From NCBI RefSeq assembly GCF_048403405.1, contig NZ_CP183129.1: a stretch of 64,000 nt of DNA, one strand, 5' to 3'. This document shows, piece by piece, positions 617 through 30,465 of the stretch. The position numbers and the translations under genes are program-made. The first letter of the stretch is position 1; every line of letters starts with the position of its first letter. Source of the DNA: Escherichia coli (lineage in GTDB: Bacteria > Pseudomonadota > Gammaproteobacteria > Enterobacterales > Enterobacteriaceae). Below the pieces are notes generated by a model, which was not told where the DNA came from, made no database searches, and was given only the letters and a program-made list of their open reading frames with translations.

Positions 617-2095
617 ATGAGCTTACGTGAAAAAACCATCAGCGGCGCGAAGTGGTCGGCGATTGCTACGGTGATCATCATCGGCCTCGGGCTGGTGCAG
701 ATGACCGTGCTGGCGCGCATTATCGACAACCACCAGTTCGGTTTGCTTACCGTGTCGCTGGTGATCATCGCGCTGGCAGATACGCTTTCTGACTTCGGTA
801 TCGCTAACTCGATTATTCAGCGAAAAGAAATCAGCCACCTGGAACTCACCACGCTGTACTGGCTGAACGTCGGGCTGGGGCTTGTGGTGTGCGTGGCGGT
901 GTTTTTGTTGAGTGATGCCATTGGCGACGTGCTGAATAACCCGGACCTGGCACCGTTGATTAAAACATTGTCGCTGGCGTTTGTGGTGATCCCCCACGGG
1001 CAACAGTTCCGCGCGTTGATGCAGAAGGAGCTGGAGTTCAACAAAATCGGCATGATCGAAACCAGCGCGGTGCTGGCGGGCTTCACTTTTACAGTGGTTA
1101 GCGCCCATTTCTGGCCGCTGGCGATGACCGCGATCCTCGGTTATCTGGTCAATAGTGCGGTGAGAACGCTGCTATTTGGCTACTTTGGCCGGAAAATTTA
1201 TCGCCCCGGTCTGCATTTCTCGCTGGCGTCTGTTGCGCCGAACTTACGCTTTGGTGCCTGGCTGACGGCGGACAGCATCATCAACTATCTCAATACCAAC
1301 CTTTCAACGCTGGTGCTGGCGCGTATTCTCGGCGCGGGCGTGGCAGGGGGATACAACCTGGCGTACAACGTGGCCGTTGTGCCGCCGATGAAGCTGAACC
1401 CGATCATCACCCGTGTGTTGTTTCCGGCATTCGCCAAAATTCAGGACGATACCGAAAAGCTGCGCGTCAACTTCTACAAGCTGCTGTCGGTGGTGGGGAT
1501 TATCAACTTTCCGGCGCTGCTCGGGCTGATGGTGGTGTCAAATAACTTTGTACCGCTGGTATTTGGCGAAAAGTGGAACAGCATTATTCCGGTGCTGCAA
1601 TTGCTGTGTGTGGTGGGTCTGCTGCGCTCCGTAGGTAACCCGATTGGTTCGCTGCTGATGGCGAAAGCGCGGGTCGATATCAGCTTTAAATTCAACGTAT
1701 TCAAAACATTTCTGTTTATTCCGGCGATTGTTATTGGTGGGCAGATGGCGGGCGCAATCGGCGTCACGCTCGGTTTCCTGCTGGTGCAGATTATCAACAC
1801 CATTCTGAGTTACTTCGTGATGATTAAACCGGTTCTTGGTTCCAGTTATCGCCAGTACATCCTGAGTTTGTGGCTGCCGTTTTATCTCTCGCTGCCGACG
1901 CTGGTGGTCAGTTATGCACTGGGCATTGTGCTGAAAGGGCAACTGGCGCTGGGGATGCTGCTGGCGGTGCAAATAGCCGCGGGCGTGCTGGCGTTTGTGG
2001 TGATGATTGTGCTGTCGCGCCATTCGTTGGTGGTGGAAGTGAAGCGTCAGTTTTGTCGCAGCGAAAAAATGAAAATGCTTTTACGGGCGGGGTGA
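617..2095 (+). CDS. wzxC: Colanic acid repeat-unit flippase (Wzx family)
   Basis: 492-aa polytopic membrane protein; position between wcaJ and wcaK; recalled WzxC sequence. Confidence 0.85.
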   Translation: MSLREKTISGAKWSAIATVIIIGLGLVQMTVLARIIDNHQFGLLTVSLVIIALADTLSDFGIANSIIQRKEISHLELTTLYWLNVGLGLVVCVAVFLLSDAIGDVLNNPDLAPLIKTLSLAFVVIPHGQQFRALMQKELEFNKIGMIETSAVLAGFTFTVVSAHFWPLAMTAILGYLVNSAVRTLLFGYFGRKIYRPGLHFSLASVAPNLRFGAWLTADSIINYLNTNLSTLVLARILGAGVAGGYNLAYNVAVVPPMKLNPIITRVLFPAFAKIQDDTEKLRVNFYKLLSVVGIINFPALLGLMVVSNNFVPLVFGEKWNSIIPVLQLLCVVGLLRSVGNPIGSLLMAKARVDISFKFNVFKTFLFIPAIVIGGQMAGAIGVTLGFLLVQIINTILSYFVMIKPVLGSSYRQYILSLWLPFYLSLPTLVVSYALGIVLKGQLALGMLLAVQIAAGVLAFVVMIVLSRHSLVVEVKRQFCRSEKMKMLLRAG

Positions 2096-2166
2096 ATGGT
2101 TGTTTTAGGCTCCGGCAATAAAAACAACAACATAACCTCACCTGGCACCAAATTTATGAGGAAAAA

Positions 2167-3447
2167 ATGAAATTACTTATTCTGGGCAACCACACTTGCG
2201 GCAATCGTGGCGACAGCGCCATCTTGCGCGGCTTACTTGATGCCATCAACATCCTCAATCCACATGCCGAAGTGGACGTGATGAGCCGCTATCCGGTCAG
2301 TTCTTCCTGGCTGCTCAACCGCCCGGTAATGGGCGATCCGCTGTTCCTGCAAATGAAACAACACAACAGCGCGGCGGGCGTTGTCGGGCGCGTTAAAAAA
2401 GTCCTCCGTCGCCGCTATCAGCACCAGGTATTGCTCTCACGCGTCACCGACACTGGCAAGCTGCGTAATATCGCCATCGCCCAGGGATTCACCGACTTCG
2501 TGCGCCTGCTGTCAGGTTACGACGCCATTATTCAGGTCGGCGGATCGTTTTTTGTCGATCTCTATGGCGTTCCGCAGTTTGAACATGCGCTTTGCACTTT
2601 CATGGCGAAAAAGCCGCTGTTTATGATTGGTCACAGCGTCGGCCCGTTCCAGGATGAGCAATTTAACCAACTGGCGAACTACGTTTTTGGTCACTGTGAC
2701 GCGCTGATCCTGCGCGAATCGGTCAGCCTTGATTTGATGAAACGCAGCAATATCACCACCGCAAAAGTGGAACATGGCGTCGATACCGCGTGGCTGGTCG
2801 ATCACCACACAGAAGACTTCACCGCCAGCTATGCCGTTCAACATTGGCTGGACGTTGCCGCACAACAGAAAACGGTGGCAATTACCCTGCGCGAACTGGC
2901 ACCGTTCGACAAACGTCTCGGCACCACTCAACAAGCGTATGAAAAAGCCTTTGCCGGGGTGGTCAATCGCATTCTCGACGAAGGCTATCAGGTTATTGCG
3001 CTCTCCACCTGTACGGGCATCGACAGCTATAACAAAGACGACCGCATGGTGGCGCTCAACCTGCGCCAGCACATCAGCGATCCTGCCCGTTACCACGTGG
3101 TGATGGATGAACTCAACGATCTGGAAATGGGCAAAATTCTCGGTGCCTGTGAACTCACCGTCGGTACGCGCCTGCACTCAGCCATTATCTCAATGAACTT
3201 TGCTACTCCGGCGATTGCCATCAACTATGAACATAAATCCGCCGGGATTATGCAACAACTGGGGCTACCAGAGATGGCAATTGATATCCGTCATTTACTG
3301 GACGGCAGCCTGCAAGCGATGGTTGCGGATACCTTAGGCCAGCTTCCGGCGCTGAACGCACGACTTAACGAAGCTGTCAGTCGTGAGCGTCATACAGGAA
3401 TGCAGATGGTGCAATCTGTGCTTGAACGCATCGGGGAGGTGAAATGA
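2167..3447 (+). CDS. wcaK: Colanic acid pyruvyl transferase
   Basis: 426 aa; recalled WcaK sequence and gene order. Confidence 0.85.
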   Translation: MKLLILGNHTCGNRGDSAILRGLLDAINILNPHAEVDVMSRYPVSSSWLLNRPVMGDPLFLQMKQHNSAAGVVGRVKKVLRRRYQHQVLLSRVTDTGKLRNIAIAQGFTDFVRLLSGYDAIIQVGGSFFVDLYGVPQFEHALCTFMAKKPLFMIGHSVGPFQDEQFNQLANYVFGHCDALILRESVSLDLMKRSNITTAKVEHGVDTAWLVDHHTEDFTASYAVQHWLDVAAQQKTVAITLRELAPFDKRLGTTQQAYEKAFAGVVNRILDEGYQVIALSTCTGIDSYNKDDRMVALNLRQHISDPARYHVVMDELNDLEMGKILGACELTVGTRLHSAIISMNFATPAIAINYEHKSAGIMQQLGLPEMAIDIRHLLDGSLQAMVADTLGQLPALNARLNEAVSRERHTGMQMVQSVLERIGEVK

Positions 3448-4664
3448 AGGTCGGCTTCTTTTTACTGAAATTTCCGCTGTCGTCGGAAACCTTCGTCCTC
3501 AATCAAATTACCGCGTTTATTGATATGGGCTTTGAGGTGGAGATTGTCGCGCTGCAAAAAGGCGACACCCAGAACACCCACGCGGCATGGACGAAATACA
3601 ACCTTGCTGCCAGAACCCGCTGGTTACAGGACGAACCTACGGGCAAAGTGGCGAAACTGCGCCACCGCGCCAGCCAGACGTTACGCGGCATTCATCGTAA
3701 AAATACCTGGCAGGCGCTCAACCTCAAACGCTATGGCGCCGAGTCGCGGAACCTGATTTTGTCTGCCATTTGTGGTCAGGTCGCAACACCGTTTCGCGCC
3801 GATGTGTTCATCGCTCATTTTGGCCCTGCGGGGGTAACCGCAGCAAAACTACGCGAACTGGGTGTCATTCGCGGCAAAATTGCCACTATCTTCCACGGTA
3901 TTGATATCTCCAGTCGGGACGTGCTCAACCACTACACTCCCGAATATCAACAACTGTTTCGCCGTGGCGACCTGATGTTACCGATAAGCGATTTGTGGGC
4001 CGGAAGGCTGCAAAAAATGGGCTGTCCGAGGGAAAAAATCGCCGTATCGCGTATGGGCGTGGACATGACGCGCTTTAGCCCGCGTCCGGTGAAAGCGCCC
4101 GCAACGCCGCTGGAAATCATCTCCGTCGCACGCTTAACCGAGAAAAAAGGCCTGCATGTGGCGATCGAAGCCTGCCGGCAGTTGAAAGAGCAGGGCGTGG
4201 CATTTCGCTATCGCATCCTCGGCATTGGCCCGTGGGAACGACGCCTGCGCACGCTCATCGAACAATATCAACTGGAAGATGTGGTAGAGATGCCGGGCTT
4301 TAAACCGAGCCATGAAGTGAAAGCGATGCTCGACGACGCGGATGTCTTCCTGTTGCCATCGATAACGGGTGCGGATGGCGATATGGAAGGTATTCCGGTG
4401 GCGCTAATGGAAGCGATGGCGGTCGGCATTCCGGTTGTTTCAACTCTGCATAGCGGAATACCAGAACTGGTGGAGGCCGATAAATCCGGCTGGCTGGTGC
4501 CTGAGAACGATGCTCGCGCACTGGCGCAACGACTGGCGGCGTTTAGCCAACTGAACACCGACGAACTGGCTCCGGTCGTCAAACGTGCGCGCGAAAAAGT
4601 CGAACACGATTTTAACCAGCAGGTGATTAATCGAGAACTCGCCAGCTTGCTGCAGGCTTTATAG
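3444..4664 (+). CDS. wcaL: Colanic acid glycosyltransferase (GT4 family)
   Basis: 406 aa; 4-bp overlap with wcaK; GT4 EX7E-like region ([20 protein letters not shown]). Confidence 0.85.
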
Positions 4665-4674
4665 AGGAGAACGT

Positions 4675-6069
4675 ATGCCATTTAAAAAACTCTCCCGACG
4701 CACCTTCCTGACGGCAAGCTCCGCGCTTGCCTTCCTCCATACCCCTTTCGCCCGTGCACTTCCCGCCCGACAAAGCGTTAACATTAACGACTACAACCCA
4801 CACGACTGGATCGCCTCATTTAAACAAGCCTTCGGCGAAGGGCAAACGGTCGTCGTGCCTGCCGGATTGGTTTGCGACAATATCAACACCGGCATCTTCA
4901 TTCCTGCAGGTAAAACGTTACACATCCTTGGAAGCCTGCGCGGCAACGGCAGAGGGCGATTTGTCTTACAGGACAGCAGCCAGGTGACAGGGGAGGAGGG
5001 TGGCAGTATGCATAACATCACCCTGGATGTGCGTGGCTCTGACTGCACCATCAAAGGGCTGACGATGAGCGGCTTTGGTCCGGTAACGCAGATTTATATC
5101 GGCGGCAAAAACAAACGAGTAATGCGTAACCTCTCCATCGATAACCTGACCGTTAGCCACGCTAATTACGCCATCTTACGCCAGGGATTTCATAACCAGA
5201 TTATCGGTGCCAACATCACCAACTGTAAATTTAGTGATTTACAGGGCGACGCCATTGAATGGAACGTGGCGATTAACGACCGTGATATTTTGATATCTGA
5301 CCATGTCATCGAGCGCATCAACTGTACCAACGGCAAAATCAACTGGGGTATCGGCATAGGCCTTGCGGGAAGTACCTACGATAATAACTACCCGGAAGAC
5401 CAGGCAGTGAAAAACTTTGTCGTGGCGAATATCACGGGATCGGATTGTCGGCAGTTGATCCATGTTGAAAATGGTAAACATTTTGTTATTCGTAATATCA
5501 AAGCCCGCAATATCACGCCGGATTTCAGCAAGAAAGCAGGCATTGATAACGCGACAGTTGCTATTTACGGTTGTGACAATTTCGTGATTGATAATATTGA
5601 AATGATTAATAGCGCTGGGATGTTAATCGGCTATGGGGTAATTAAAGGCAAATATCTCTCAATACCGCAAAATTTCCGAGTGAATAATATTCAAATGGAT
5701 AACACCCATCTTGCTTATAAATTGCGCGGTATCCAAATCTCTGCCGGGAATGCTGTCTCCTTTGTGGCGCTGACTAACATTGAGATGAAGCGTGCGTCGC
5801 TGGAGTTACACAACAAACCGCAACATCTTTTTATGCGAAATATCAAGGTGATGCAGGAATCCTCAGTTGGACCCGCATTGAGCATGAACTTCGACATGCG
5901 CAAAGACGTTCGCGGCGTCTTTATGGCGAAAAAAGAAACACTGCTGTCACTTGCAAATGTTCATGCGGTGAATGAAAAAGGGCAAAGCTCCGTCGATATC
6001 GACAGAGTTAATCACCACATTGTTAATGTGGAAAAGATTAACTTTAGATTGCCAGAACGGAGGGAGTAG
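4675..6069 (+). CDS. wcaM: Colanic acid biosynthesis protein WcaM (signal peptide, beta-helix-like)
   Basis: 464 aa; N-terminal Tat-like signal ([13 protein letters not shown]); last gene of wca cluster by synteny. Confidence 0.8.
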
Positions 6070-8358: not shown

Positions 8359-8618
8359 TGAAAATCTGACCGAATGTGACGGTTGGCAAGGAAACTATAA
8401 CAGCAGTGAAGATTCGTGGCGAAAGTAATTTGTTGCGAATATTCCTGCCGTTATTTTGTATAAACAATCAGAATAACAAATAGTTAGCAATAGGCTTTTC
8501 GTCAAAGTTTTCCTGGATTTTCCTTGTTTCCAGAACGGATTGGTAAGACAATTAGCGTTTGAGTTTCGAGGGAGATGCAGCAATGTCTCTCAGTAACAGT
8601 ACGCAATATCAATGAGTT

Positions 8619-8657
8619 CAGTGCACTGGTAGCTGTTAAGCCAGGGGCGGTAGCGTG
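8619..8657 (+). promoter_or_regulatory. JUMPstart element with ops site (GGCGGTAGC), RfaH-dependent antitermination signal
   Basis: Sequence cagtgcactggtagctgttaagccaggggcggtagcgtg between galF and first O-antigen gene; ops core GGCGGTAGC visible. Confidence 0.6.
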
Positions 8658-8667
8658 GATTGATGGA

Positions 8668-9489
8668 ATGAAAAATAAGTGCCCACGAATTGCAGTAATA
8701 ATGTCGGTTTATATTAATGATAAATTTAATGAGTTTAAAGAGGCTTTTGACAGTATTATTAATCAAACATACTCTAACTTTGTTTTCTTTATTTATGCCG
8801 ATGGCAAGATAAATCCAGATATTGAAAGTTTTTTGCAAAATTATAATTCGCAACATGTGATTTTCATTAGAAGTGAAAAAAATAAGGGATTAGCTTATGC
8901 TTTGAATAAATTAATATCAGTGGCGCTAGTTAATAATGAATTTGATTTTATTGCCAGAATGGATGCTGATGATATAAGTTTAGAAGATAGATTTCAACGA
9001 CAAATAGATTTTTTTATGGCTAACCCTGAGTTAGATGTTGTTGGTGGGTTGTGTCAAGAGTTTGGTGGTGAGTCAGCAAGAGAAAAATGCAAGATCTATT
9101 TTACAGATGAAGCCATTAAAAACAATGCCTTTAAAAAATGTCCTTTCGTTCATCCAACCGTGATGTTTAAATCGTCTGTATTTAATAACGGGATGCGATA
9201 CCCTGAAAATCAGCCACTGACAGAAGATATGTGCTTATGGCTCGAGTTAATATCCGCGAATAAAAAGTTTGCAAATATTGACTCCGTTCTTCTAAAGTAC
9301 AGAATTAATGAGCAGACGCTAAAAAGAAGAAGAGGTTTGAATAAGGCTGTAACCGAATTATCCACAAGATTGTATTACGCCAAGAAACTTAAAATGCTTA
9401 GCGTACGGAATTTGTTATATATATTAATCCATTTTGGTGTCAGAGTCCTTTCTTCAAATATATTTAAACTTGTACATAAGTTAAATTAA
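8668..9489 (+). CDS. Glycosyltransferase family 2 (O-antigen cluster)
   Basis: ORF 8575..9489 trimmed to first ATG after JUMPstart; GT2-like N-terminus (IAVIMSVYIN, DxD-like MDADD); low GC. Confidence 0.6.
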   Translation: MKNKCPRIAVIMSVYINDKFNEFKEAFDSIINQTYSNFVFFIYADGKINPDIESFLQNYNSQHVIFIRSEKNKGLAYALNKLISVALVNNEFDFIARMDADDISLEDRFQRQIDFFMANPELDVVGGLCQEFGGESAREKCKIYFTDEAIKNNAFKKCPFVHPTVMFKSSVFNNGMRYPENQPLTEDMCLWLELISANKKFANIDSVLLKYRINEQTLKRRRGLNKAVTELSTRLYYAKKLKMLSVRNLLYILIHFGVRVLSSNIFKLVHKLN

Positions 9490-9490
9490 A

Positions 9491-11257
9491 ATGAATAAAA
9501 CTGTTTATACATATGATGTATGGGATACTATTTTAAAACGTCATTGTTTACCATCATATACGTTAGAGGTTTCGTTGTACTGGCTACTTTTGTATCTTGG
9601 AAAACCTGAGAAACATAAGGATGTGTATAAAAAAGTAAAAGCACTGGAGAGTGATTTTTTTAATCGAAAAGAAGAATATTTTATTGAAGAGCTTATTGTT
9701 GGGATATTAATTGAAAATAATTTAATGAATGGATTTTGCAATAACTCTGTGACTGCTGCTTGGGAACAAATATATTATTTCGTAGAGAGAAATTGTACAT
9801 ATAAAAATAAAGAGGTTATAGAGTTAATTGGGAGTGACTATGGGGACAAATTATTTATTTCTGATTTTTATACTGACTCCAGTTTCATAAAGAAATTGCT
9901 ACACCACCACCAAGTATCGGTTTTAGATGGTGTGACGTCAGCTGAGTATGGCGTCAGTAAGCATATGGGTTCATTGTATGAAAAAATAGAACTATTGAAG
10001 CAAAGGAAATGGATCCATACTGGAGATAATGAATTAGCTGATATAAAAATGGCAAAGCGTGCAGGTGCCCAAGTTAGACTTATAAAATCCAAAAAGAAGA
10101 AAATAAATAAGTTAAAAATAAAAAATGACTATGAGCGGTTAGCATTTATTATTTTGTCCTTTAGCCTGTTTATATTAAAAACTTCCAGAAAGAAAAAGTG
10201 CAATAAGATCTACTTTTTTACAAGGGAGGGGGTTTTTTTCAAAAAAAACTTTGATCTTCTACTAAACCAAATACCTAACATATTCCCATCTATAACTACG
10301 GAAATATTGCCAATCAGTCGAGTAGCCAGCTTAGCATTGAAGTTTAATGAGTCTGATGAATTTTTAGGATTTAATGATGCATTAACCCAGTATGGCTATG
10401 GAGTGTCTACGTTTCTTAGTTTCTTTCATCTTGATGATTGTTACTCCGAGCTCACAACAAAGTATCATGATGTAAATGATTTATTATCTCACAGAAATGA
10501 TCCTTTGGTAAAACAACTAATAAAAAGTATAGAGGATAAAAAAAAACGAACAGAAAATTTTCTTACATCCATTGAGTTCGATTCTGAGCCAAGTATCATC
10601 GTGGATATTGGTTGGCGGGGTAGCATCCAAGATAATTTAATGTCGCGGAAAAATAATTATATTCAACATGGATGTTATCTCGGATTGTTTGATTTTTACC
10701 CAGGCCAGTCAGGTCAGAATAAATCATCTGTAATTTTTGATAACAACAGATTTAGACAAAAATGGACCATGAAAGGTGTAGCTTTTATGGAGACGGTTTT
10801 CAATGCTTTGGACGGAAGTGTTGTCGATTATGTAAACAATAAACCGAAAAGAAAAGAAAATTACGCTGAGATAGAAAATTCAAAACATTTAATAGTTATG
10901 CAAGATGCTATCATTGAGGAATTTATGAATCTATCTATTATGTTAAAAGAGGGAAAGTTAAATATCAATGATATTGAAAGATTAGCTATTGAAAGTTACA
11001 AAAAAATAGTAACTAACCCATCTAAAGAAATAGCTGATTTTTATGTTGGCAGTATCCAAAATGAAAGCTTCGGTTTGAATGATTTTATCGACAAAGAATT
11101 TAACATTAGCGCAGTAGATGTTTTCCGAAGTTTTTTTTCTAAAAGTAAAAGAAATGAAATAAGAATAAAATTGCATAGAAATGGATGGCGTGAGTCGATA
11201 CTTAAATCCTCTAAAGTATCGCTGAGCGCAAAATTATGTTCACTTTTAATTAGATAA
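9491..11257 (+). CDS. Hypothetical 588-aa O-antigen cluster protein with possible HAD-like N-terminal domain
   Basis: Long low-GC ORF tightly packed between two GT2 genes; tentative HAD motifs (YDVWDTIL, HTGDNELAD); no confident family assignment. Confidence 0.45.
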   Translation: MNKTVYTYDVWDTILKRHCLPSYTLEVSLYWLLLYLGKPEKHKDVYKKVKALESDFFNRKEEYFIEELIVGILIENNLMNGFCNNSVTAAWEQIYYFVERNCTYKNKEVIELIGSDYGDKLFISDFYTDSSFIKKLLHHHQVSVLDGVTSAEYGVSKHMGSLYEKIELLKQRKWIHTGDNELADIKMAKRAGAQVRLIKSKKKKINKLKIKNDYERLAFIILSFSLFILKTSRKKKCNKIYFFTREGVFFKKNFDLLLNQIPNIFPSITTEILPISRVASLALKFNESDEFLGFNDALTQYGYGVSTFLSFFHLDDCYSELTTKYHDVNDLLSHRNDPLVKQLIKSIEDKKKRTENFLTSIEFDSEPSIIVDIGWRGSIQDNLMSRKNNYIQHGCYLGLFDFYPGQSGQNKSSVIFDNNRFRQKWTMKGVAFMETVFNALDGSVVDYVNNKPKRKENYAEIENSKHLIVMQDAIIEEFMNLSIMLKEGKLNINDIERLAIESYKKIVTNPSKEIADFYVGSIQNESFGLNDFIDKEFNISAVDVFRSFFSKSKRNEIRIKLHRNGWRESILKSSKVSLSAKLCSLLIR

Positions 11258-11260
11258 AAT

Positions 11261-27218: not shown

Positions 27219-28118
27219 TCACTCCATCATCTTCTCAATCGGCAGGACCAGGATTGAACTGGCACCCAGCGCTTTCAGTTTTTCCATGGTTTCCCAGAAC
27301 AGGGTTTCGCTGCTGACCATGTGCATCGCTACGCGCTGTTGATCACCCGCCAGCGGCAGAATAGTTGGGCGTTCGGCACCTGGCAGCAGGGCGATGACTT
27401 CATCCAGACGTTCGGTCGGTGCGTGCATCATGATGTATTTTGATTCGCGCGCCTGGATCACACCCTGAATACGGGTCAGCAGTTTGTCGATCAGTTGCTG
27501 TTTGGATTCTTCCATTTCGCCATCGCGTTGGATCAGGCAAGCTTTCGAGCGGTAGATAACTTCGACTTCGCGCAGGCCGTTTGCTTCCAGCGTGGCACCG
27601 GTGGAAACCAGATCGCAAATCGCATCCGCCAGTCCGGCACGCGGGGCGACTTCAACAGAACCGTTCAGTAAGCAGGATTTAAAAGAGATGCCTTTCTGGT
27701 CGAGATAACGCTTGAGCAGGTGAGGATAAGAGGTGGCGATACGTTTACCGTTTAAGGAGAGCGGGCCGTCCCAGGCTTCATCAACCGGCGTTGCCAGTGA
27801 AAGTCGGCAGCCGCCAAAATCCAGACGACGCAGGGTAAAGTAGCGCGGATCTTCACCCTGGGCGCGGCGGTTAAGCAGCTCTTCTTCCAGCACGTTTTCG
27901 CCGATAATCCCAAGGTCTACCACGCCATCCATTACCAGACCGGGAATGTCGTCGTCACGCACGCGCAGAATATCAATCGGCATGTTTTCTGCCATCGCGA
28001 TCAGGCGCTGGGTGTGAAGATTGATTTTAATGCCACAGCGCGCCAGCAATTCGCGTGAATCATCACTTAAACGGCCGGATTTCTGCATAGCTATGCGTAA
28101 ACGAGTGTTGTCTGTCAT
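27219..28118 (-). CDS. hisG: ATP phosphoribosyltransferase
   Basis: 299 aa from [17 protein letters not shown]; first structural gene of his operon. Confidence 0.95.
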
Positions 28119-28165
28119 TTTGTTATTCCTCTTTAAACCTGTCTGAACCGTTATCAACCGCGCAA

Positions 28166-28210
28166 TAAAAAAGCCCCCGGAAGGTGATCTTCCGGGGGCT
28201 TTCTCATGCG
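28166..28210 (-). terminator. his attenuator terminator hairpin
   Basis: Minus-strand hairpin agcccccggaagatcaccttccgggggc followed by T-run, between hisL and hisG. Confidence 0.65.
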
Positions 28211-28263
28211 TTCATGCACCACTGGAAGATCTGAATGTCTTCCAGCACACATCGCCTGAAAGA

Positions 28264-28314
28264 CTAGTCAGGATGATGGTGATGATGGTGGTGTTTAAAT
28301 TGAACGCGTGTCAT
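28264..28314 (-). CDS. hisL: his operon leader peptide (MTRVQFKHHHHHHHPD)
   Basis: 16-codon ORF with seven consecutive His codons upstream of attenuator hairpin. Confidence 0.85.
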   Translation of the reverse strand: MTRVQFKHHHHHHHPD

Positions 28315-28535
28315 AAAAGTCTCTGTGAATGTTTATTCAACTGATGTCTTTTAACCTAAACCACTTTCACGTTAGAAAGCAAGGGCTTTTTTATATATTT
28401 TATGGCAATGGATTTGTTTAATGAATGAGCGGGGAAAGGAGGGGGCCTGGAGTGACTACGTTAGAAAAGAAATCGTGAAAATATGTCTTTAAAACCCTCA
28501 AGAACATTGTGTTCTGTAACTAAAGTGGGCTTTGT

Positions 28536-28640
28536 TCCTGCCGGATGCGGCGTGAATGCCTTATCTGGTCTACAAATGTTGCGTAAATTCAATATATTGA
28601 TGTTTTTGTAGGACTGATAAGCGGAGCGCATCAGGCAATG
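28536..28640. repeat. REP/BIME-type palindromic elements
   Basis: gcctgccggatgcggcgtgaatgccttatctggtctaca and gtaggactgataagcggagcgcatcaggca in hisL-yeeZ intergenic region. Confidence 0.5.
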
Positions 28641-28740
28641 GTATATTTGCTAACCGTTTCGATTTCATTCATAGAATGAATTGTCAGTTTTGATACGCTA
28701 GCGTAGCCTTATAGATCTTAGGTGTATCAGGAGATAACGG

Positions 28741-29565
28741 ATGAAAAAGGTCGCAATTGTCGGGTTAGGGTGGTTAGGCATGCCGCTGGCGATGTCACTT
28801 TCAGCGCGAGGCTGGCAAGTCACCGGGAGTAAAACCACACAAGATGGTGTCGAAGCGGCCCGAATGAGTGGCATTGATAGCTATCTGCTTCGCATGGAGC
28901 CTGAGTTAGTTTGCGATTCTGACGATCTGGATGCCCTGATGGATGCCGATGCGCTGGTCATTACGCTTCCGGCACGTCGTAGCGGCCCCGGCGATGAGTT
29001 CTATTTACAAGCGGTACAAGAGTTAGTGGATAGCGCGCTGGCTCATCGTATTCCCCGCATTATTTTCACCAGCTCAACGTCTGTCTATGGCGACGCGCAA
29101 GGCACGGTGAAAGAAACTACCCCGCGTAATCCGGTAACCAACAGTGGAAGAGTATTAGAAGAACTCGAAGACTGGCTGCACAATTTACCCGGTACTTCGG
29201 TCGATATTCTGCGTCTTGCGGGCCTTGTCGGACCGGGACGTCATCCCGGACGCTTCTTTGCCGGAAAAACCGCGCCTGATGGTGAACATGGTGTTAATTT
29301 AGTCCATTTAGAAGATGTTATTGGCGCTATCACTCTGTTGTTACAGGCACCTAAAGGCGGACACATCTATAATATATGTGCGCCAGCTCACCCTGCGCGT
29401 AATGTTTTCTATCCGCAGATGGCCCGTTTACTGGGGCTGGAACCTCCGCAGTTCAGAAATAGTCTGGACAGCGGCAAAGGTAAGATTATTGATGGCAGTC
29501 GGATTTGTAATGAACTGGGGTTTGAATACCAGTATCCCGATCCGCTGGTAATGCCGCTGGAGTAA
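28741..29565 (+). CDS. yeeZ: NAD-dependent epimerase/dehydratase family protein YeeZ
   Basis: 274 aa; Rossmann N-terminus (KVAIVGLGWLG); synteny. Confidence 0.85.
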   Translation: MKKVAIVGLGWLGMPLAMSLSARGWQVTGSKTTQDGVEAARMSGIDSYLLRMEPELVCDSDDLDALMDADALVITLPARRSGPGDEFYLQAVQELVDSALAHRIPRIIFTSSTSVYGDAQGTVKETTPRNPVTNSGRVLEELEDWLHNLPGTSVDILRLAGLVGPGRHPGRFFAGKTAPDGEHGVNLVHLEDVIGAITLLLQAPKGGHIYNICAPAHPARNVFYPQMARLLGLEPPQFRNSLDSGKGKIIDGSRICNELGFEYQYPDPLVMPLE

Positions 29566-29610
29566 ACGATCACGCCAGCAGGACGCCGCATGCACTGCAA
29601 GGGGGCGTGT

Positions 29611-30465
29611 ATGAAACCACTGCTGGATGTGTTGATGATCCTCGATGCCTTAGAAAAAGAAGGCAGTTTTGCGGCGGCGTCGGCCAAACTCTACAAGACG
29701 CCGTCCGCTCTGAGTTACACCGTTCACAAGCTGGAAAGCGACCTTAATATTCAATTGCTTGATCGTAGCGGTCACCGCGCTAAATTCACCCGCACCGGAA
29801 AAATGTTATTAGAGAAAGGGCGGGAAGTTCTGCATACCGTGCGGGAACTGGAAAAGCAGGCGATCAAACTGCATGAAGGCTGGGAAAACGAGCTGGTGAT
29901 TGGCGTGGACGACACGTTTCCTTTTTCTCTGCTTGCGCCACTGATTGAAGCTTTTTATCAACATCATAGCGTGACGCGCCTGAAGTTTATCAATGGCGTA
30001 CTCGGTGGTTCCTGGGATGCCCTGACTCAGGGGCGAGCGGATATTATTGTTGGCGCGATGCATGAGCCACCATCTTCCAGTGAATTTGGTTTCTCGCGGT
30101 TGGGCGATCTGGAACAAGTCTTTGCGGTCGCGCCTCATCATCCGTTAGCCCAGGAAGAAGAGCCGTTAAACCGTCGTATCATTAAGCGATATCGGGCGAT
30201 TGTGGTGGGGGACACTGCGCAGGCAGGCGCTTCTACGGCCTCACAACTTCTCGACGAACAAGAAGCCATTACCGTTTTCGATTTTAAAACCAAGCTGGAG
30301 CTGCAAATTAGCGGCCTCGGCTGCGGCTATTTACCCCGTTATCTGGCGCAACGTTTTCTCGATAGTGGCGCGTTAATCGAGAAGAAAGTGGTCGCCCAAA
30401 CTCTCTTTGAACCCGTCTGGATTGGCTGGAATGAACAGACCGCAGGGCTTGCCAGCGGCTGGTGA
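29611..30465 (+). CDS. yeeY: LysR-family transcriptional regulator YeeY (possibly C-terminally shortened)
   Basis: ORF 29590..30465 trimmed to MKPLLDVLMILDALEKEGSFAAA; HTH then LysR substrate domain; frame continues 24 codons after a TGA. Confidence 0.8.
   Translation: MKPLLDVLMILDALEKEGSFAAASAKLYKTPSALSYTVHKLESDLNIQLLDRSGHRAKFTRTGKMLLEKGREVLHTVRELEKQAIKLHEGWENELVIGVDDTFPFSLLAPLIEAFYQHHSVTRLKFINGVLGGSWDALTQGRADIIVGAMHEPPSSSEFGFSRLGDLEQVFAVAPHHPLAQEEEPLNRRIIKRYRAIVVGDTAQAGASTASQLLDEQEAITVFDFKTKLELQISGLGCGYLPRYLAQRFLDSGALIEKKVVAQTLFEPVWIGWNEQTAGLASGW

What the first reader, a model, noticed from the sequence alone, without database searches (positions are those of the whole stretch)
28315..28740. 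No yefM-yoeB toxin-antitoxin module between hisL and yeeZ
In K-12 (from memory) yefM-yoeB lie between hisL and yeeZ. Here the about 425-bp interval contains only REP-like palindromes and no ORF.
Basis: partly seen in the sequence, partly recalled or inferred. Interest (0 to 1): 0.3.

Follow-up and report, generated by a model that had tools for sequence, protein, structure and literature searches.

The report
TA-free hisL–yeeZ allele with a BIME
This E. coli strain carries the common, already described version of the hisL–yeeZ spacer that has a small repeat element (a BIME) where K-12 has the yefM-yoeB toxin-antitoxin genes; it is an ordinary natural polymorphism.

Summary
hisL (28264-28314, minus strand) and yeeZ (28741-29565, plus strand) are separated by 426 bp with no yefM or yoeB. 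K-12 MG1655 has an 867-bp spacer holding both genes.

This is not a simple deletion. The flanks are identical, but about 207-217 bp here (28447/28453-28661/28663) stand in place of a non-homologous cassette of about 650 bp. The local segment carries one BIME-1-like element: a y-type REP, a 34-nt linker and an inverted z1-like REP.

Among 5426 complete E. coli genomes, 1196 (22%) have this TA-free allele, including O157:H7 and SMS-3-5. Another 4212 (78%) have the cassette.

E. albertii and three other Escherichia species representatives carry the TA-free allele. E. whittamii carries the cassette with the same junctions, so both alleles are old. Salmonella, Citrobacter and most other Enterobacteriaceae have a spacer of only about 160-200 bp with neither.

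The cassette has plasmid relatives at 83-86% identity, from 64 nt upstream of yefM to the yoeB stop codon.

The absence of yefM-yoeB in O157:H7 Sakai, and REPs at this spot, were published in 2011. Verdict: real, ordinary and already known; low interest.

The parts
28165..28288 (-). his operon leader/attenuator RNA (Rfam RF00514)
   Evidence: 131.6 bits against a gathering score of 49, full-length model match
28264..28314 (-). hisL leader peptide gene (MTRVQFKHHHHHHHPD)
   Evidence: sequence; annotated hisL in FDAARGOS_497, identical over 28100-28900
28315..28452 (.). Left part of the spacer, shared by both alleles. It should contain the his promoter region. Positions 28447-28452 (CTGGAG) are a variant of the TAAGAG found in TA alleles and in E. 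albertii.
   Evidence: 100% identical to the TA-bearing strain up to 28446; the promoter position is inferred, not tested
28400..28414 (+). Left copy of an imperfect direct repeat (TTATGGCAATGGATT) bounding the Escherichia-specific extra DNA. The ancestral single copy in Salmonella is TTATAGTATGAATT.
   Evidence: alignment; read by eye, weak
28415..28668 (.). Escherichia-specific extra DNA (about 254 bp) absent from the Salmonella and Citrobacter spacers. Its edges are kept in both alleles.
   Evidence: alignment; 61 of 73 species representatives have a spacer of 150-199 bp
28453..28661 (.). Allele-specific segment that stands in place of the yefM-yoeB cassette. By strict identity to L001 it spans 28447-28663, 217 bp.
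   Evidence: junctions; no significant similarity to the cassette; present in 1196 of 5426 genomes
28540..28573 (+). REP1, y-type REP ending in CTAC
   Evidence: 2 mismatches to a canonical 34-mer, 0 of 100 shuffles match
28574..28607 (.). 34-nt linker between the two REPs. It holds AATTCAATATATTG and an IHF core motif, ATCAATATATTG, at 28590-28601 (-).
   Evidence: the linker core is shared with the cmoB-torZ BIME; motif match, not significant on its own
28608..28636 (-). REP2, short z1-like REP in inverted orientation (GTAG on the + strand at 28608-28611)
   Evidence: 2 mismatches to a 29-mer, 0 of 100 shuffles match; the pair folds with z = -3.3
28664..28740 (.). Right part of the spacer, shared by both alleles. 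It includes the conserved GCTAGCGTAGCCTTAT and the yeeZ ribosome-binding site.
28741..29565 (+). yeeZ (SDR-family oxidoreductase / putative epimerase)
   Evidence: protein WP_000754737.1 in both TA-free and TA-bearing genomes

Best explanation
The window carries the TA-free allele of a two-allele site in the spacer between the divergently transcribed his operon and yeeZ. Between identical flanks, this allele has about 207-217 bp of non-coding DNA with a single BIME-1-like element (y REP, long linker, inverted z1-like REP). The other allele has an unrelated cassette of about 650 bp: 86 nt of unknown origin, then the yefM promoter/operator, yefM and yoeB, ending 3-5 nt after the yoeB stop codon.

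Shown: both alleles are common in E. coli, and both occur in other Escherichia species with the same junctions.

Inferred: a single ancient replacement event created the dimorphism. The allele state has since been passed on vertically and swapped by homologous recombination through the conserved flanks, next to the recombination-prone O-antigen/his region. I judge the BIME allele the older state in Escherichia (about 60%), with a plasmid-type yefM-yoeB unit later replacing its core.

Inferred consequences for this strain: no YoeB mRNA interferase and no YefM repressor from this locus; yeeZ is not read through from the yefM promoter; the BIME, a possible IHF or gyrase site, sits between the two divergent promoters.
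For: Flanks and breakpoints.

Frequencies: 1193-1196 of 5426 genomes are TA-free and 4212 of 5426 have the cassette.

Known strains: O157:H7 is TA-free (H42-H45) and so is SMS-3-5. K-12 has the cassette.

Other Escherichia: E. albertii, E69, MOD1-EC7003 and E1V33 have the 424-426-bp TA-free allele. Their allele-specific segment is 87.5-96.8% identical to the window, in line with flank divergence. E. whittamii has the cassette with the same junctions, and its 867-column spacer differs from E. coli at 30 positions.

Virgin site: Salmonella and Citrobacter spacers are about 160-180 bp with neither filling, and 61 of 73 species representatives have 150-199 bp.

Mobile origin of the cassette: plasmid homologues at 83-86% nt identity cover cassette positions 87-654 only. 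This fits the published view that a transferable TA unit is promoter/operator plus ORFs without a terminator (PMC5120126).

Prior reports: Sakai lacks yoeB/yefM and has REPs at yeeZ-hisL (PMC3158064). REPs also occupy the ccdO157 insertion site in some strains (PMC7167474).
Against: The polarity is not settled. The TA allele also keeps both edges of the Escherichia-specific extra DNA, so 'TA first, later replaced by a BIME-bearing segment' fits the anatomy equally well.

Only one representative per non-coli species was seen, and E. fergusonii, E. marmotae and E. ruysiae were not identified among the loci.

No phylogeny-aware reconstruction was done. The 22% figure is inflated by the many O157:H7 genomes in RefSeq.

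The functional consequences (yeeZ transcription, IHF binding) are untested.
Confidence: 0.9

Rival explanations
1. A recent, strain-specific deletion removed yefM-yoeB from a K-12-like ancestor.
For: The genes are absent and the flanks are 100% identical to a TA-bearing strain.
Against: The TA-free allele contains about 207-217 bp that the TA allele lacks, so it cannot arise by deletion alone. The same allele is in 1196 genomes and in four other Escherichia species representatives, with species-level divergence. No cassette remnant is present.
Confidence: 0.02
2. The TA-free allele is a heavily eroded relic of an ancient yefM-yoeB insertion. On this reading its 'unique' DNA descends from the yefM promoter and the yoeB 5' end, later overwritten by a BIME.
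For: Strain HH97 has a 650-bp spacer that aligns by eye to both alleles and seems to bridge them. There are short collinear resemblances, such as CTTATCTGGTCT against CTAATCTGGTCT and CTGATAAGCGGA against CAGATAAGCGAA.
Against: Direct similarity between the window segment and the cassette is no better than shuffled controls: 130-306 of 500 shuffles score at least as well for the whole segment, and 514-928 of 1000 for the upstream part. The REP-linker-REP block is a bona fide BIME, about 81% identical to the one between cmoB and torZ, so it cannot descend from yoeB. HH97 is a singleton among 5426 genomes. It shows fine-scale interleaving of 7-13-mers from the two alleles, the pattern expected from a chimeric consensus of mixed reads.
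Confidence: 0.05
3. The yefM-yoeB cassette was the first filling of the Escherichia-specific insertion, and the BIME-bearing segment replaced it later (opposite polarity to the best explanation).
For: Both alleles share the 54-nt left edge and the roughly 20-nt right edge of the Escherichia-specific DNA. REPs and BIMEs are mobile and are known to occupy TA insertion sites (PMC7167474; PMC3333891). The cassette is the majority allele in E. coli and is present in E. whittamii.
Against: Four of five non-coli Escherichia representatives, including E. albertii, have the BIME allele with divergence that tracks the flanks. The plasmid homologues share only cassette positions 87-654, not the shared edges.
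Confidence: 0.35
4. The TA module is not missing but has moved elsewhere in this genome.
For: Only 64 kb of the genome can be inspected. Plasmid-borne yefM-yoeB homologues exist in Enterobacteriaceae.
Against: There is none in the window. In E. coli complete genomes the cassette is essentially single-copy and at this locus: 4225 places in 4218 genomes, none on plasmids of that collection.
Confidence: 0.05

Closest known systems
yeeZ-hisL region of E. coli O157:H7 Sakai (Iguchi et al. 2011, PLoS One, PMC3158064)
   Same: Same locus and same allele. [quoted passage not shown] O157:H7 genomes match the window's allele-specific segment at 96.3%.
   Different: The window is not O157. Its O-antigen cluster and its hisD, hisG, yeeZ and yeeY proteins match the SMS-3-5 / FDAARGOS_497 type. 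Its sub-allele (at least 99% identity) is in only 90 genomes.
yefM-yoeB type II toxin-antitoxin locus of E. coli K-12 (b2017/b4539)
   Same: Same chromosomal site and identical flanking sequence.
   Different: The window has no yefM, no yoeB and no TGTACA operator repeats. About 210 bp of unrelated DNA with a BIME stands in their place.
ccdO157 at the folA-apaH spacer (Mine et al. 2009; reviewed by Fraikin et al. 2020, PMC7167474)
   Same: A chromosomal type II TA cassette that is present or absent among E. coli strains at a fixed intergenic site, where REP sequences are found instead in some strains.
   Different: Different TA family and different locus. Decay of the toxin gene was documented for ccdO157, whereas no convincing decayed yefM-yoeB was found here, apart from the doubtful HH97 record.
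BIME-1 elements of E. coli (y REP, L linker, z1 REP; Bachellier et al., summarised in PMC3333891)
   Same: Single copy, two inverted REPs with GTAG/CTAC feet, a long linker whose core AATTCAAT.TATTG is shared with another BIME, and an IHF core motif.
   Different: Both REPs deviate from consensus in their feet (CTGGTC for CCGGCC, CAGTCC for CAGGCC). The y and z1 typing rests on consensus sequences recalled from memory. IHF binding is untested.

Membership tests
yefM-yoeB (Phd/YefM antitoxin with YoeB/Txe toxin) type II TA locus | an ORF encoding a YefM-like antitoxin | tested here: not met
   tblastn of K-12-type YefM against the whole window: best E = 0.11, inside hisD
yefM-yoeB (Phd/YefM antitoxin with YoeB/Txe toxin) type II TA locus | an overlapping downstream ORF encoding a YoeB-like toxin | tested here: not met
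   tblastn of YoeB: best E = 0.14 and not in the spacer; no DNA remnant of the cassette
yefM-yoeB (Phd/YefM antitoxin with YoeB/Txe toxin) type II TA locus | paired operator palindromes (TGTACA repeats) upstream of yefM | tested here: not met
   The K-12-type 'cattgtacaatgaactgtacaaaag' is absent from 28315-28740
BIME-1 (bacterial interspersed mosaic element, type 1) | two REPs in inverted orientation, each with a GTAG/CTAC tetranucleotide at its foot | tested here: met
   REP1 at 28540-28573 (+) ends in CTAC. REP2 at 28608-28636 (-) gives GTAG on the + strand. Each has 2 mismatches to its consensus and 0 of 100 shuffles match.
BIME-1 (bacterial interspersed mosaic element, type 1) | a single copy with a long, conserved L linker that often carries an IHF site (PMC3333891) | tested here: inconclusive
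   The element is single-copy with a 34-nt linker. The core AATTCAAT.TATTG is shared with the cmoB-torZ BIME, about 81% identical overall. The IHF core motif at 28590-28601 is not significant alone: 7 matches found against 6.4 expected. IHF binding cannot be tested here.
BIME-1 (bacterial interspersed mosaic element, type 1) | composition of one y REP and one z1 REP | tested here: inconclusive
   The typing uses consensus sequences I recalled, not a curated library. The lengths (34 and 29 nt) and sequences fit y and z1.
His operon leader (Rfam RF00514), which identifies the left flank | covariance-model score above the gathering threshold | tested here: met
   131.6 bits against 49, full length
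TA-or-REP alternative occupancy of a fixed intergenic site (as described for ccdO157) | same flanks, with a TA cassette in some strains and REP-containing DNA in others | tested here: met
   the literature parallel is

The most novel reading that the evidence does not exclude
The BIME-bearing and yefM-yoeB-bearing fillings are an ancient trans-species dimorphism of one insertion hot spot. The same few bases upstream of '…ATGAATTGTCAG' also took an ERIC-like repeat in Kosakonia. On this reading the TA cassette entered by a REP/BIME-directed or microhomology-directed mechanism (TAAGAG…GACT on the left, GA-TTCATTC on the right) rather than at random. Together with ccdO157 at folA-apaH, this locus would then be a tractable natural example of how naked chromosomal TA cassettes integrate, which reviews state is still unknown (PMC7167474).
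Probability: 0.15. Interest if true: 0.4.

Novelty: already known. Interest (0 to 1): 0.12.

Why it matters
It matters little. It tells an annotator that this strain, like O157:H7 and SMS-3-5, lacks the chromosomal YoeB/YefM pair, so K-12-based statements about YoeB-dependent mRNA cleavage or about read-through into yeeZ do not apply.

The modest added value is in four points. The exact junctions are now defined. The two fillings are non-homologous. Both alleles exist in other Escherichia species. The pre-insertion state survives in Salmonella and Citrobacter. These make the locus a clean case for studying TA-cassette gain or loss next to a REP element.

Tried and rejected
1. Simple deletion. 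Rejected because the TA-free allele has its own 207-217 bp.

2. Homology between the window's allele-specific DNA and the cassette, including the idea that the window keeps a decayed yefM promoter. Smith-Waterman scores under three scoring schemes were no better than shuffles. A canonical BIME also shows no similarity to the cassette.

3. HH97 as an evolutionary intermediate. By eye it bridges the two alleles. However, it is a singleton and shows fine-scale k-mer interleaving, so I treat it as a probable chimeric consensus and do not use it.

4. Small ORFs in the spacer. They are not annotated and the longest is not conserved.

5. Other RNA families in 27000-30000. Only the His leader passes; all other hits are far below gathering scores.

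6. Promoter and terminator scan of the spacer. It found 2 promoter-like sites against 1.6 expected and no terminator, which is uninformative.

7. Fiedoruk 2015 and Ramisetty & Santhosh 2016, the papers most likely to tabulate yefM-yoeB by phylogroup, are not held in the library. The phylogroup distribution was therefore not quantified.

Full report
**Observation**

The sequence shows hisL on the minus strand at 28264-28314, encoding MTRVQFKHHHHHHHPD. The his attenuator is recognised by Rfam at 28165-28288 with 131.6 bits against a gathering score of 49. hisG lies at 27219-28119 (minus strand) and yeeZ at 28741-29565 (plus strand).

Neither YefM nor YoeB is encoded anywhere in the 64-kb window, and no DNA remnant of the cassette is present.

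Mechanical ORFs of 23-56 aa exist in the spacer. RefSeq annotates no gene in this spacer in FDAARGOS_497, which is identical over 28100-28900, or in SMS-3-5. The longest ORF is interrupted in three of the four other Escherichia species that share the allele.

K-12 MG1655 has yeeZ-yoeB-yefM-hisL with an 867-bp spacer. A paper gives the same figures: 282 bp from hisL to yefM and 82 bp from yoeB to yeeZ (PMC5120126).

**Anatomy of the difference**

I aligned the window with a TA-bearing E. coli (L001). The flanks are identical up to 28446 on the left and from 28664 on the right. Between them are 217 bp in the window and 656 bp in L001.

Other alleles refine the junctions. TAAGAG (CTGGAG in the window, 28447-28452) is part of the shared left flank, and GA precedes TTCATTCATAG on the right. 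The truly allele-specific parts are therefore about 28453-28661 here and about 648 bp in the TA allele.

The two fillings are not homologous. Local alignment scores are matched or beaten by 130-306 of 500 shuffles for the whole segment, and by 514-928 of 1000 for the part upstream of yefM. This is a replacement, not a deletion.

**What fills the gap here**

The segment has three parts:
- About 85 nt of unique sequence.
- A REP at 28540-28573 (+) and an inverted, shorter REP at 28608-28636 (-). Each is 2 mismatches from a canonical REP, and none of 100 shuffles gives a match.
- A 34-nt linker between the REPs.

The strand folds better than shuffles, with z = -3.3. The whole REP-linker-REP block is about 81% identical to the BIME between cmoB and torZ, including the linker core AATTCAAT.TATTG. 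The linker holds an IHF core motif at 28590-28601, though that short motif is not significant by itself.

A single copy with a y REP, a long conserved linker and a z1 REP is the published description of BIME-1 (PMC3333891). I file the element as BIME-1-like. The y and z1 typing rests on consensus sequences I recalled, and IHF binding is untested.

**What fills the gap in K-12-type strains**

The cassette has three parts:
- 86 nt of unknown origin, which begins with a short hairpin (GAGGAC-T-GTCCTC).
- The yefM promoter/operator.
- yefM and yoeB, with the cassette ending 3-5 nt after the yoeB stop codon.

Plasmid homologues were found on a Salmonella IncFII plasmid, a Citrobacter plasmid and E. 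marmotae pEM148. They are 83-86% identical and cover cassette positions 87-654 only, from 64 nt upstream of yefM to the stop codon. This matches the published view that a transferable TA unit is promoter/operator plus ORFs without a terminator, and that yeeZ is probably co-transcribed with it (PMC5120126).

**Distribution in E. coli**

| State of the hisL-yeeZ spacer | Complete E. coli genomes (of 5426) | Source |
|---|---|---|
| TA-free allele (at least 80% of the 217-bp segment) | 1196 | |
| Contiguous TA-free arrangement | 1193 | |
| yefM-yoeB cassette | 4212, essentially single-copy and always chromosomal | |
| Something else | about 18 | by subtraction |

TA-free genomes include O157:H7 (96.3% identity) and SMS-3-5. 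TA-bearing genomes include K-12, O103:H2, NU14 and an ST131 strain.

The window's own sub-allele (at least 99% identity) occurs in 90 genomes. Its O-antigen cluster and flanking proteins are those of SMS-3-5 / FDAARGOS_497. The 22% figure is inflated by the many O157:H7 genomes.

**Beyond E. coli**

A scan for hisL in one genome per species returned 75 loci. hisL and yeeZ are divergent neighbours throughout the Enterobacteriaceae. In 61 of 73 usable genomes the spacer is only 150-199 bp.

Salmonella and Citrobacter show the virgin site: …GCTTTTTTCA-TTTCGTATTTATAGTATGAATT-GTCAG….

| Escherichia representative | Spacer length | Allele | Identity to reference |
|---|---|---|---|
| E. albertii | 425 bp | TA-free | 87.5% (allele-specific segment, vs window) |
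| E69 | 426 bp | TA-free | 96.8% (allele-specific segment, vs window) |
| MOD1-EC7003 | 424 bp | TA-free | 92.1% (allele-specific segment, vs window) |
| E1V33 | 425 bp | TA-free | 96.8% (allele-specific segment, vs window) |
| E. whittamii | 866 bp | yefM-yoeB cassette, same junctions as E. coli | 96.8% (cassette, vs L001) |

These divergences are comparable to those of the flanks: 92-95% in yeeZ and 95-98% in hisG.

Both alleles keep the same edges of about 254 bp of Escherichia-specific DNA. That DNA is bounded by an imperfect direct repeat of the ancestral TTATAGTATGAATT, at 28400-28414 and 28669-28682. This repeat was read by eye and is weak evidence.

In Kosakonia oryziphila an ERIC-like repeat sits at the same point, so the site seems prone to small insertions.

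**Most likely history and mechanism**

Shown: there are two old, non-homologous fillings with one pair of junctions in at least two species each, and the cassette has plasmid relatives.

Inferred:
- One ancient replacement event created the dimorphism.
- It persists by vertical descent and by homologous recombination through the conserved flanks, in a region next to the O-antigen cluster that is known for recombination.
- The BIME allele is the older state in Escherichia (about 60% against 35% for the reverse). It is in four of five non-coli representatives with flank-like divergence, and the cassette looks imported.
- For the strain, the consequence is simply the lack of this YoeB/YefM pair and of read-through into yeeZ from the yefM promoter.

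**A false lead**

E. coli HH97 has a 650-bp spacer that seems to bridge the two alleles. This suggested that the TA-free allele might be an eroded TA. I rejected the idea for three reasons:
- HH97 is unique among 5426 genomes.
- It is a fine-scale, collinear interleaving of short words from both alleles, plus noise.
- The direct similarity tests fail.

A chimeric consensus of mixed reads is the likelier explanation, and only the raw reads can settle it.

**Comparison with what is known**

Iguchi et al. 2011 already reported that O157:H7 Sakai lacks yoeB and yefM between yeeZ and hisL, and that REPs lie in this spacer (PMC3158064).

Variable TA content among E. coli strains is textbook knowledge (PMC2654758; PMC7167474). 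The same review notes REPs at the ccdO157 insertion site and states that the integration mechanism of TA cassettes is unknown.

**Verdict**

The finding is real, correctly interpreted, ordinary and already known. The interest score is 0.12.

The most novel reading not excluded is a REP-linked or microhomology-linked integration hot spot carrying a trans-species dimorphism. I give it a probability of about 0.15.

Noticed in passing
L083 2325-2973 (E. coli HH97, NZ_CP116409.1): A singleton 650-bp hisL-yeeZ spacer that looks like a fine-scale blend of the yefM-yoeB cassette and the BIME allele, with many small indels and no annotated genes. It is probably a chimeric consensus of mixed reads, or possibly a real mosaic allele.
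   Followed up: partly
L003 (E. coli MEI4BO-21, NZ_CM149565.1), locus 2068-5855: The his-yeeZ segment looks foreign: the leader is 90% identical and YeeZ only 82% identical at the protein level. The spacer is a short 178 bp of the Salmonella type, and yeeY is missing, so plaP follows yeeZ.
   Followed up: no
L054 (Kosakonia oryziphila), hisL-yeeZ spacer of 450 bp: An ERIC/IRU-like repeat (…AGTAATCCCCGGGAGCTTACATAAGTCCGTGACTGGGGTGAGCG…) is inserted at the same point of the spacer where Escherichia has its extra DNA. This suggests an insertion hot spot between the divergent his and yeeZ promoters.
   Followed up: partly
window 28696-28711: GCTAGCGTAGCCTTAT, about 30-45 nt upstream of the yeeZ start, is nearly invariant in Escherichia, Salmonella and Citrobacter while the DNA around it varies. 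It may be a regulatory site for yeeZ.
   Followed up: no
window 15930-16700: An IS1 copy (InsA-like ORF at 15959-16234, InsB-like ORF at 16153-16656) sits between the last O-antigen gene and gnd (17043-18449). The preceding 146-aa membrane-protein ORF (15468-15908) may be truncated by it.
   Followed up: partly
window 8400-17000: The O-antigen gene cluster is 99.9-100% identical to that of SMS-3-5 and about 75 other complete genomes from humans, cattle, dogs and water. The window therefore comes from an SMS-3-5-like O-type background.
   Followed up: partly
L001 1848-1933 (TA-bearing E. coli): The first 86 nt of the yefM-yoeB cassette are not shared with the plasmid homologues or with the BIME allele. 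They start with a perfect 6-bp hairpin (GAGGAC-T-GTCCTC). Their origin is unknown.
   Followed up: no
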